Positions 5,943-6,239 of a stretch of DNA of 37,339 nucleotides are shown here, piece by piece (the first letter of the stretch is position 1; every line of letters begins with the position of its first letter). Below the pieces are notes generated by a model. It did no database searches. It was not told where the DNA came from and saw nothing but the letters and a program-made list of their open reading frames with translations. Where the stretch lies: positions 1 through 37,339 of the IMG/VR virus record IMGVR_UViG_2585427777_000002. One strand, 5' to 3'. The DNA comes from a virus. Lineage: Duplodnaviria; Heunggongvirae; Uroviricota; Caudoviricetes. The position numbers and the translations under genes are program-made.

Positions 5943-5962
5943 TACTGTATAAATATACAGTT
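5943..5962. promoter_or_regulatory. LexA (SOS) box TACTGTATAAATATACAGTT
   Basis: 19 of 20 positions match the enterobacterial LexA consensus TACTGT-N8-ACAGTA; lies 20 bp upstream of the ATG of gene 5982..6239 and overlaps a TATAAA -10-like hexamer. Confidence 0.65.
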
Positions 5963-5981
5963 ATTGCATGGAGAAGATAAG

Positions 5982-6239
5982 ATGCAGCAGTATCACTATC
6001 CACTGGAAGACGGATTTACCGAAAGGATTCACACGCCGGGAGGCGTCAGGTCACTGGTGGAGGGATCGCACTTGATGAAATTACTCCGGGATCTCGATAA
6101 GGATGGATTTAATGTCGATGGCCCACTTGCCGAACTGACTGCACTGATTAACTACGTCACCAGCTCACAGATGTCTATGCAGGATCTGCAAACACATCTC
6201 GACTATTGTGCCGAACAATTACGAAAACAAACCAGATAA
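5982..6239 (+). CDS. small protein homologous to the shared C-terminal domain of the two antirepressors; candidate SOS-controlled antirepressor
   Basis: 85 aa from ATG 5982 with GGAGAAG RBS; aligns by eye with the C-termini of 6553..7245 and 8253..8903 (HTPGGVRSLVEGSHLMKLL versus HSPSGVLGLTENSLLMNLL); LexA box immediately upstream. Confidence 0.6.
   Translation: MQQYHYPLEDGFTERIHTPGGVRSLVEGSHLMKLLRDLDKDGFNVDGPLAELTALINYVTSSQMSMQDLQTHLDYCAEQLRKQTR

What the first reader, a model, noticed from the sequence alone, without database searches (positions are those of the whole stretch)
5943..6239. Near-consensus LexA box in front of a small antirepressor-domain gene; SOS input apparently via an antirepressor
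TACTGTATAAATATACAGTT (5943..5962) matches the LexA consensus at 19 of 20 positions and lies 20 bp before the ATG of an 85-aa gene. That product aligns with the C-terminal domain shared by the Bro-N and AntA antirepressors. The putative repressor lacks a recognisable autocleavage domain, so a LexA-controlled antirepressor is the likely route from DNA damage to induction, as in Gifsy-type prophages and Tum of phage 186. No comparable LexA box was seen before the two large antirepressor genes, which instead carry the operator palindrome.
Basis: partly seen in the sequence, partly recalled or inferred. Interest (0 to 1): 0.7.

Follow-up and report, generated by a model that had tools for sequence, protein, structure and literature searches.

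The report
LexA-controlled small antirepressor, already known type
The SOS box and the 85-aa gene are real and form the DNA-damage trigger of this E. coli prophage, but this is the same LexA–Ant–Rep switch already shown by experiment and crystal structure in the related Salmonella phage SPC32H, so it is an ordinary, if usually unannotated, example.

Summary
TACTGTATAAATATACAGTT (5943..5962) is the only LexA-type box in the window. It matches 18 of 20 consensus positions, not 19. It ends 19 nt before the ATG of an 85-aa gene (5982..6239).

The window is a phiV10/epsilon15-like podophage (genus Uetakevirus). The 85-aa protein is 88% identical to Ant of Salmonella phage SPC32H, whose structure is solved (PDB 5D50, E=4e-47). 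The gene sits in the same place, divergent from the tailspike gene, and the LexA box is conserved in all nine relatives compared. SPC32N, the sister phage of SPC32H, carries a C-to-A change in the ACAG arm of that box.

The repressor (32371..32955) is a homologue of SPC32H Rep (41% identical) and has no S24 cleavage domain. Ant resembles Tum and the Gifsy antirepressors in function only, not in sequence.

Three additions:
- The Ant domain does recur as the C-terminus of the Bro-N and AntA proteins.
- Those two genes sit in P1 immI / Gifsy-1 isrK-type cassettes: repressor operator, isrK-like RNA, then C4 antisense RNA.
- The operator palindrome also lies upstream of ant itself.

Interest is low.

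The parts
5891..5905 (.). Palindrome TTACCTTTCAGGTAA (extended form ATTACC-N5-GGTAAT). Probable Rep operator in the tailspike/ant divergent intergenic region.
   Evidence: 12 exact and 4 one-mismatch sites in the window against 0.66 expected. The palindrome is invariant in all 9 orthologous intergenic regions. The homologous site is annotated as a 'repressor' binding site in the epsilon15 RefSeq record.
5920..5948 (+). Candidate ant promoter: -35 TGGATA at 5920..5925, 17-nt spacer, -10 TACTGT at 5943..5948. This is inferred and weak by consensus.
   Evidence: CTGGA-A and TA-TGT are invariant columns in alignment A1. The consensus scan found no promoter here at its threshold. A -10 element further downstream would leave no room for the Shine-Dalgarno sequence.
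5943..5962 (.). LexA (SOS) box TACTGTATAAATATACAGTT.
   Evidence: Conserved in 9 of 9 relatives. The SPC32N mutation falls in the base homologous to window position 5958.
5970..5973 (+). Shine-Dalgarno sequence GGAG, 8 nt before the ATG.
   Evidence: GGAG is invariant.
5982..6239 (+). ant: an 85-aa SPC32H-type antirepressor.
   Evidence: 88% identical to SPC32H ant. PDB 5D50 chain E, E=4e-47. phrog_450. Purifying selection.
32371..32955 (+). rep: a 194-aa repressor with two HTH regions and no autocleavage domain. It is the presumed target of Ant.
   Evidence: PDB 5D50 chain A, E=3.5e-42 over the full length. 41% identity to SPC32H Rep. Pfam matches HTH_3 only, with no S24. 69 columns are invariant across four host groups.
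32253..32315 (.). Cluster of operator palindromes between rep and the divergent gene (OR-like).
   Evidence: SPC32H has the same arrangement.
33013..33088 (.). Two operator palindromes downstream of rep (OL-like).
   Evidence: Homologous sites are annotated as repressor binding sites in epsilon15.
6271..6285 (.). Operator palindrome at the promoter of antirepressor cassette 1.
6322..6398 (+). isrK-like RNA with an intrinsic terminator. It is also the first terminator downstream of ant.
   Evidence: Rfam RF01394, 74.7 bits. Terminator at 6379..6392.
6417..6504 (+). C4-type antisense RNA of cassette 1.
   Evidence: Rfam RF01695, 78.6 bits. It is complementary to the leader and Shine-Dalgarno sequence of the downstream gene.
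6553..7245 (+). 230-aa antirepressor with a Bro-N N-domain and an Ant-like C-domain (aa 149-225).
   Evidence: Pfam Bro-N. Its C-domain matches 5D50_E at E=9e-14. It is 81% identical to vB_EcoP_ZX5 ORF4, which was tested by overexpression (PMC9782041).
8253..8903 (-). 216-aa antirepressor with an AntA N-domain and an Ant-like C-domain (aa 135-211).
   Evidence: Pfam AntA. Its C-domain matches 5D50_E at E=5e-14. Its C-terminus is identical to that of the Bro-N protein.
8953..9037 (-). C4-type antisense RNA of cassette 2.
   Evidence: Rfam RF01695, 61.2 bits. Its cassette-specific antisense element differs from that of cassette 1.
9062..9138 (-). isrK-like RNA of cassette 2.
   Evidence: Rfam RF01394, 67.7 bits.
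9175..9189 (.). Operator palindrome at the promoter of cassette 2.

Best explanation
This is the SOS-sensing module of a phiV10/epsilon15-like (Uetakevirus) temperate podophage of E. coli. It is orthologous to the LexA-Ant-Rep antirepression system of Salmonella phage SPC32H. In the lysogen, the phage repressor Rep (32371..32955, with no autocleavage domain) is expected to occupy the ATTACC-N5-GGTAAT operators. Host LexA is expected to sit on the SOS box 5943..5962, which overlaps the ant promoter region, and keep ant silent. DNA damage activates RecA and LexA cleaves itself. ant (5982..6239) is then transcribed, and the 85-aa Ant protein binds Rep. By analogy with the 5D50 structure, an Ant tetramer binds two Rep dimers and breaks up the DNA-binding tetramer. 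Rep leaves its operators and lytic genes are expressed. What is shown here: the box, the gene, their conservation and synteny, the homology of both proteins to the solved SPC32H pair, and the lack of an S24 domain in Rep. What is inferred: LexA binding, the exact promoter, the Ant-Rep contact in this phage, and the oligomeric mechanism.
For: The box is unique and significant. Ant is 88% identical to the gene annotated ant in SPC32H and matches PDB 5D50_E 'Anti-repressor protein' at E=4e-47. SPC32H has a LexA box at the homologous position. The box, the Shine-Dalgarno sequence and the upstream palindrome are conserved in 9 phages from four host genera, while surrounding bases vary. SPC32H and SPC32N differ at 2 nt in this stretch, one of which is a C-to-A change in the ACAG arm of the box. 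As I recall the abstract of Kim & Ryu 2013 (J Virol 87:11775, not held in the library), that mutation makes Ant constitutive and the phage lytic. Rep matches 5D50_A 'Repressor' at E=3.5e-42 over its full length and has no S24 domain. Ant and Rep homologues occur in essentially the same set of phage records (35 with Ant, 37 with Rep). Reviews and later papers describe SPC32H Ant as LexA-dependent and as a tetramer that binds two Rep dimers (PMC7380047; PMC9638917). The E. coli phage vB_EcoP_ZX5 has an identical Ant, the same box and a 99.5% identical Rep, and it is induced by mitomycin C (PMC9782041).
Against: Nothing was measured for this phage. Rep is only 41% identical to SPC32H Rep while Ant is 88% identical, so the two do not co-vary, and an Ant-Rep contact here is assumed rather than shown. 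No sigma-70 promoter passes the consensus scan upstream of ant. A Rep-type operator lies 38 bp upstream of the box and may add a second layer of control or belong to the divergent tailspike promoter. Two further Ant-domain proteins could contribute to induction. The primary papers could not be read here.
Confidence: 0.88

Rival explanations
1. SOS induction of this phage runs mainly through the large Bro-N/AntA antirepressors. This is the only 'anti-repressor' considered in the vB_EcoP_ZX5 study. Under this view the small gene is accessory or acts on other prophages.
For: Overexpression of ZX5 ORF4, which is 81% identical to the product of window 6553..7245, lowered lysogeny about 1000-fold (PMC9782041). 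The large proteins carry the same Ant-like domain.
Against: No LexA-type box precedes either large gene. They sit behind a repressor operator, an isrK-like terminator and a C4 antisense RNA that covers their Shine-Dalgarno sequences. That is immI-type control, not SOS control. SPC32H has no such large genes next to ant and, as I recall Kim & Ryu 2013, is induced through Ant.
Confidence: 0.05
2. Ant of this phage does not inactivate its own Rep, which has diverged to 41% identity from SPC32H Rep. Instead it acts in trans on repressors of other resident prophages, or it has another target.
For: Ant and Rep identities are uncoupled between host groups. For E. coli against Salmonella phages, Ant is 84-88% identical and Rep 41%.
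Against: Every phage record with Ant also has a Rep homologue, and nearly every Rep record has Ant. 69 Rep columns in both domains are invariant across all four groups. The same operator palindrome is used in SPC32H and in the window, so the Rep family behaves as one functional type.
Confidence: 0.04
3. The LexA box controls the divergent tailspike/lysis transcription unit, or is a non-functional relic, rather than controlling ant.
For: The box lies in a divergent intergenic region shared with the tailspike gene, whose ATG is at 5786 on the minus strand. No consensus promoter was detected for ant.
Against: The box ends 19 nt from the ant ATG but lies about 157 nt from the tailspike ATG. It is conserved in all 9 relatives. 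A single base change in it distinguishes SPC32H from SPC32N.
Confidence: 0.03

Closest known systems
Ant/Rep/LexA antirepression system of Salmonella phage SPC32H (Kim & Ryu 2013, J Virol 87:11775; Kim et al. 2016, PNAS 113:E2480; PDB 5D50 and 5D4Z)
   Same: Same genus (Uetakevirus). The ant gene is at the same position, divergent from the tailspike gene. Ant is 88% identical. The LexA box is at the homologous position. Rep is homologous over its full length and has no S24 domain. The same ATTACC-N5-GGTAAT palindrome is scattered over the genome.
   Different: Rep is only 41% identical. Here ant has no terminator of its own and is followed by about 4 kb of extra antirepressor cassettes that SPC32H lacks. 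No experiments exist for this phage.
Tum of coliphage 186 and the Gifsy/Fels antirepressors (Shearwin 1998; Lemire 2011)
   Same: The logic is the same: a LexA-repressed promoter drives a small protein that inactivates a non-cleavable repressor by binding it (PMC7380047).
   Different: No sequence relation was detected. Ant gives no meaningful Pfam or NCBIfam hit. tblastn against 50,697 phage records found only the 35 records that also carry a Rep homologue, most of them classified in Uetakevirus. These systems are analogues, not relatives.
P1/P7 immI (c4-icd-ant) and the Gifsy-1 isrK-orf45-anrP operon (Hershko-Shalev 2016, PMC4825925)
   Same: This applies to the two large antirepressor genes only. 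Each has a repressor operator at the promoter, an isrK-like RNA with a terminator, a C4-type antisense RNA complementary to the leader and Shine-Dalgarno sequence, and then an antirepressor gene.
   Different: There are two cassettes in inverted orientation with different antisense specificity elements but identical C-terminal effector domains. That effector domain is of the SPC32H Ant type.

Membership tests
SPC32H-type LexA-Ant-Rep antirepression module | A small (~86 aa) protein homologous to SPC32H Ant | tested here: met
   88% identity by tblastn. PDB 5D50_E, E=4e-47, residues 2-84 against 3-85.
SPC32H-type LexA-Ant-Rep antirepression module | A LexA box immediately upstream of ant, overlapping its promoter region | tested here: met
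   The box at 5943..5962 is unique in the window. It is homologous to the SPC32H box and conserved in 9 of 9 relatives. Overlap with the promoter is inferred, not mapped.
SPC32H-type LexA-Ant-Rep antirepression module | A Rep-family repressor without a RecA-dependent autocleavage (S24) domain | tested here: met
   5D50_A, E=3.5e-42. Pfam matches HTH families only.
SPC32H-type LexA-Ant-Rep antirepression module | Synteny: ant lies divergent from the tailspike gene, at the end of the structural gene block | tested here: met
SPC32H-type LexA-Ant-Rep antirepression module | LexA binds the box, and ant is derepressed by the SOS response | not testable with these tools
   Needs EMSA or reporter assays. 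Indirect support: the close relative ZX5 is mitomycin-inducible.
SPC32H-type LexA-Ant-Rep antirepression module | Ant physically binds Rep and releases it from operator DNA | not testable with these tools
   Inferred from homology to the 5D50 complex. Rep is only 41% identical.
Tum (186) / Gifsy-type antirepressors | Sequence homology to Tum, GfoA or GfhA | tested here: not met
   No Pfam or NCBIfam family. tblastn against the phage collection at E<=1e-3 hit only the 35 Rep-carrying relatives, most of them Uetakevirus.
Tum (186) / Gifsy-type antirepressors | The antirepressor gene is under direct LexA control | tested here: met
   Shown at sequence level only.
E. coli-type SOS box | CTGT-N8-ACAG with an A+T-rich spacer and TA/TA flanks | tested here: met
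   CTGTATAAATATACAG has a perfect core. The site matches 18 of 20 positions of TACTGTATATATATACAGTA.
P1 immI / Gifsy-1 isrK-type antirepressor cassette (large genes only) | isrK-like and C4-type RNAs between promoter and antirepressor gene, with the C4 RNA complementary to the leader | tested here: met
   Rfam hits above gathering score for both cassettes. Complementarity to the Shine-Dalgarno regions.

The most novel reading that the evidence does not exclude
The SPC32H-type Ant fold may be a portable repressor-disassembly module. This phage carries it three times under three different controls. One copy stands alone behind a LexA box. Two copies are fused to Bro-N or AntA N-domains behind Rep operators and two C4 antisense RNAs of different specificity. 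All three would converge on one Rep. The SOS-induced ant transcript has no terminator before the isrK-like element and carries the C4 target TTGGTCT. It might therefore titrate C4 RNA and unlock translation of the fused antirepressor, giving a feed-forward link between SOS control and immI-type control.
Probability: 0.15. Interest if true: 0.5.

Novelty: already known. Interest (0 to 1): 0.18.

Why it matters
The main value is for annotation. The ant gene with its box is present in 531 of 5,426 complete E. coli genomes, and in every record listed it is labelled 'hypothetical protein'. A 2022 study of the regulators of vB_EcoP_ZX5, whose Ant is identical, never mentions LexA in its text, and the ZX5 record labels this gene hypothetical. 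Recognising it as the SPC32H-type Ant explains why these common E. coli prophages are inducible by mitomycin C. It also points to the gene to delete, or the base to mutate (position 5958), to control induction. It opens no new question about mechanism.

Tried and rejected
- The primary papers (Kim & Ryu 2013; Kim et al. 2016) are not held in the library. Their content is cited from memory of the abstracts and from citing papers.
- Pfam and NCBIfam have no model for Ant. The weak DUF724 hit (17.6 bits against a cutoff of 38.4) was dismissed as spurious. PHROGs places Ant in phrog_450, 'unknown function'.
- The 126-aa ORF from 5859, which some databases call, was rejected because of stop codons in the orthologous extensions.
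- The other CTGT-N8-ACAG matches (21050, 25592, 26945) were rejected as LexA boxes. Each has more than 3 mismatches to the 20-mer, and about 0.5 such core matches are expected by chance.
- The consensus promoter scan gave no ant promoter. The proposed TGGATA-17-TACTGT rests only on conservation.
- Homology to Tum or the Gifsy antirepressors was considered and rejected.
- The word-indexed homologue search returned almost only 85-86-aa stand-alone proteins from Enterobacteriaceae. The exhaustive search of representatives was needed to see the fused forms.

Full report
**What the window is.** The genes around the finding are a DUF2514 Rz-like protein, holins, a 923-aa tailspike with an S74 chaperone domain, and Bro-N and AntA proteins. 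Megablast of 5790..6420 hits phiV10, vB_EcoP_ZX5, phiv142-3, TL-2011b and other Escherichia podophages at 93-99% identity. All are epsilon15-like phages of the genus Uetakevirus. The same 453 bp (5787..6239) occurs in 531 of 5,426 complete E. coli genomes, and in the records listed it is annotated 'hypothetical protein'.

**The observation.** The sequence at 5943..5962 is TACTGTATAAATATACAGTT.
- It has two mismatches to TACTGTATATATATACAGTA, so it matches 18 of 20 positions rather than 19.
- It is the only site in the window within three mismatches, and none was found in 100 shuffles.
- The core CTGT-N8-ACAG is perfect. The three other core matches in the window all differ from the 20-mer consensus by more than three positions.
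- Nineteen bases separate the box from the ATG at 5982, and GGAG lies at 5970..5973.
- The ORF 5982..6239 encodes 85 aa. Codon differences from SPC32H ant are 33 synonymous against 11 nonsynonymous.
- The in-frame upstream extension, which gives a 126-aa ORF in some databases, is interrupted by stop codons in five other lineages.

**What the gene is.** tblastn against 50,697 phage records finds 35 records. The Salmonella phages SPC32H and SPC32N match at 88% identity, and there the gene is annotated 'ant: anti-repressor protein'.
- The SPC32H gene lies at the same place, divergent from the tailspike gene.
- It is preceded by TACTGTATGTTTATACAGTG at the homologous position.
- The protein matches PDB 5D50 chain E, 'Anti-repressor protein', at E=4e-47 over residues 2-84.
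- In an alignment of the tailspike-ant intergenic region from nine phages of Escherichia, Salmonella, Enterobacter and Klebsiella, three elements are conserved while neighbouring bases vary: the LexA box, the Shine-Dalgarno sequence and an upstream palindrome.
- Within the 849-bp stretch compared, the deposited SPC32H and SPC32N sequences differ at two bases. One is a C-to-A change in the ACAG arm of the box, homologous to window position 5958.

The primary paper could not be opened. As I recall its abstract (Kim & Ryu 2013), that mutation makes Ant constitutive and the phage lytic, Rep is not cleaved during the SOS response, and LexA represses ant. A review states the same logic and cites that paper (PMC7380047).

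**The repressor.** ORF 32371..32955 (194 aa) matches PDB 5D50 chain A, 'Repressor', at E=3.5e-42 over its full length. It is 41% identical to SPC32H Rep. Its Pfam matches are HTH families only, with no Peptidase_S24 domain. A later paper summarises the structure: Rep binds DNA as a tetramer, and the tetrameric Ant binds two Rep dimers and breaks the tetramer (PMC9638917). Ant and Rep homologues occur in essentially the same set of phage records.

Their divergence is uncoupled. Between the E. coli and Salmonella groups, Ant is 84-88% identical while Rep is 41% identical. Even so, 69 Rep columns in both domains are invariant across the four host groups. This mismatch is the main reason for not treating the Ant-Rep contact in this phage as certain.

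**The operator palindrome.** TTACC-N5-GGTAA occurs 12 times exactly and 4 times with one mismatch, against 0.66 expected. SPC32H shows the same excess. Sites cluster between rep and the divergent gene (32253..32315) and downstream of rep (33013 and 33074). In the epsilon15 RefSeq record, these palindromes are annotated as 'repressor' binding sites, including the one upstream of gp19, which is the ant homologue. However, a copy also lies at 5891..5905, 38 bp upstream of the LexA box. Whether that copy serves ant, the divergent tailspike promoter or both cannot be decided here. The consensus scan found no sigma-70 promoter for ant. The conserved pair TGGATA-17-TACTGT is only a proposal.

**The shared C-terminal domain.** Ant aligns at 42% identity over 74 residues with the C-termini of two proteins. 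One is the Bro-N protein (6553..7245, start corrected from the TTG at 6508). The other is the AntA protein (8253..8903, minus strand).
- The two C-termini are identical to each other.
- Both match 5D50_E at about 1e-13 over nearly the whole Ant chain.
- An exhaustive search of 1.8 billion representative proteins gave only 45 hits. Most are stand-alone proteins of 82-95 aa, with a few C-terminal fusions.
- The N-domains of those fusions are Phage_pRha, AntA or Bro-N.
- In vB_EcoP_ZX5, the Bro-N fusion (ORF4) is 81% identical to the window protein and has an identical C-terminal half. Its overexpression lowered lysogeny about 1000-fold, and the lysogen was inducible with mitomycin C.
- The text of that paper never mentions LexA, and the ZX5 record annotates the small gene as a hypothetical protein (PMC9782041).

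**How the large genes are controlled.** Rfam finds an isrK-like RNA followed by a C4 antisense RNA in front of each large gene, all above gathering score. The two leaders are near-identical inverted copies. Each comprises a palindrome, a TTTACA-17-CATAGT promoter-like site, an isrK-like element with a terminator, a C4-like element, and then a leader with the Shine-Dalgarno sequence.

Each C4-like RNA contains AGACCAA, which is complementary to TTGGTCT in both the isrK-like element and the leader. Each also has a cassette-specific element complementary to the Shine-Dalgarno region of its own gene. In cassette 1, CCTTTGTAG pairs with CTACAAAGG. In cassette 2, CCACTTAG pairs with CTAAGTGG. This is the design of P1/P7 immI, as I recall the literature on c4-icd-ant, and of the Gifsy-1 isrK-orf45-anrP operon (PMC4825925). 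These genes are therefore under immunity-type control, not SOS control, which fits the absence of LexA boxes there.

**Verdict.** The system is the already characterised SPC32H-type module, carried by a phage of the same genus. Its resemblance to Tum and the Gifsy antirepressors is functional only, since no sequence relation was found. Three minor points remain open: the uncoupled divergence of Ant and Rep, the triple use of the Ant domain, and possible read-through of the SOS-induced ant transcript into the isrK-like element. No terminator was found between 6239 and 6379.

Noticed in passing
window 6270..6553 and 8903..9190 (minus strand): Two near-identical inverted leaders precede the Bro-N and AntA antirepressor genes. 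Each has a repressor-type palindrome, a promoter-like site, an isrK-like RNA with a terminator and a C4-type antisense RNA (Rfam). The two C4 RNAs differ in one antisense element, with matching changes over the Shine-Dalgarno sequence of their own gene. They therefore look like two specificities, as in P1 against P7.
   Followed up: partly
window 6239..6399: ant has no terminator of its own. The first terminator downstream is that of the isrK-like element (6379..6392). The SOS-induced ant transcript would thus carry the isrK-like sequence with the C4 target TTGGTCT. In SPC32H and epsilon15, ant is followed directly by a terminator.
   Followed up: no
whole window, e.g. 5891, 7419, 9761, 25063, 28271, 29951, 30013, 32301, 33013, 33074: The palindrome TTACC-N5-GGTAA is scattered in front of many transcription units, including structural and lysis genes. 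The same holds in SPC32H. A single repressor acting at many dispersed operators recalls P1 C1 rather than lambda.
   Followed up: partly
window 9337..9735: A 132-aa ORF consists only of a P22_AR_N domain (E=2e-43), apparently a truncated P22-type antirepressor. The region between ant and the structural genes is a hotspot for antirepressor modules, and its content differs between close relatives.
   Followed up: no
window 5982..6239 versus 32371..32955: Ant is far more conserved than Rep between E. coli and Salmonella Uetakeviruses (88% against 41% identity). Against Enterobacter phages the two are similar (78-85% against 75-79%). This suggests recombination between modules, or an Ant that tolerates divergent Reps.
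   Followed up: partly
window 25400..25473: A tRNA gene (Rfam, 71.7 bits) lies at the position where SPC32H has tRNA-Arg. The 83-aa ORF 25406..25657 on the opposite strand overlaps it and is probably not a gene.
   Followed up: no
window 7474..8109: A 211-aa ORF of unknown function (phrog_1349, no Pfam match) sits between the two inverted antirepressor cassettes. It is preceded by two palindrome copies (7318 and 7419) and followed by a strong terminator.
   Followed up: no
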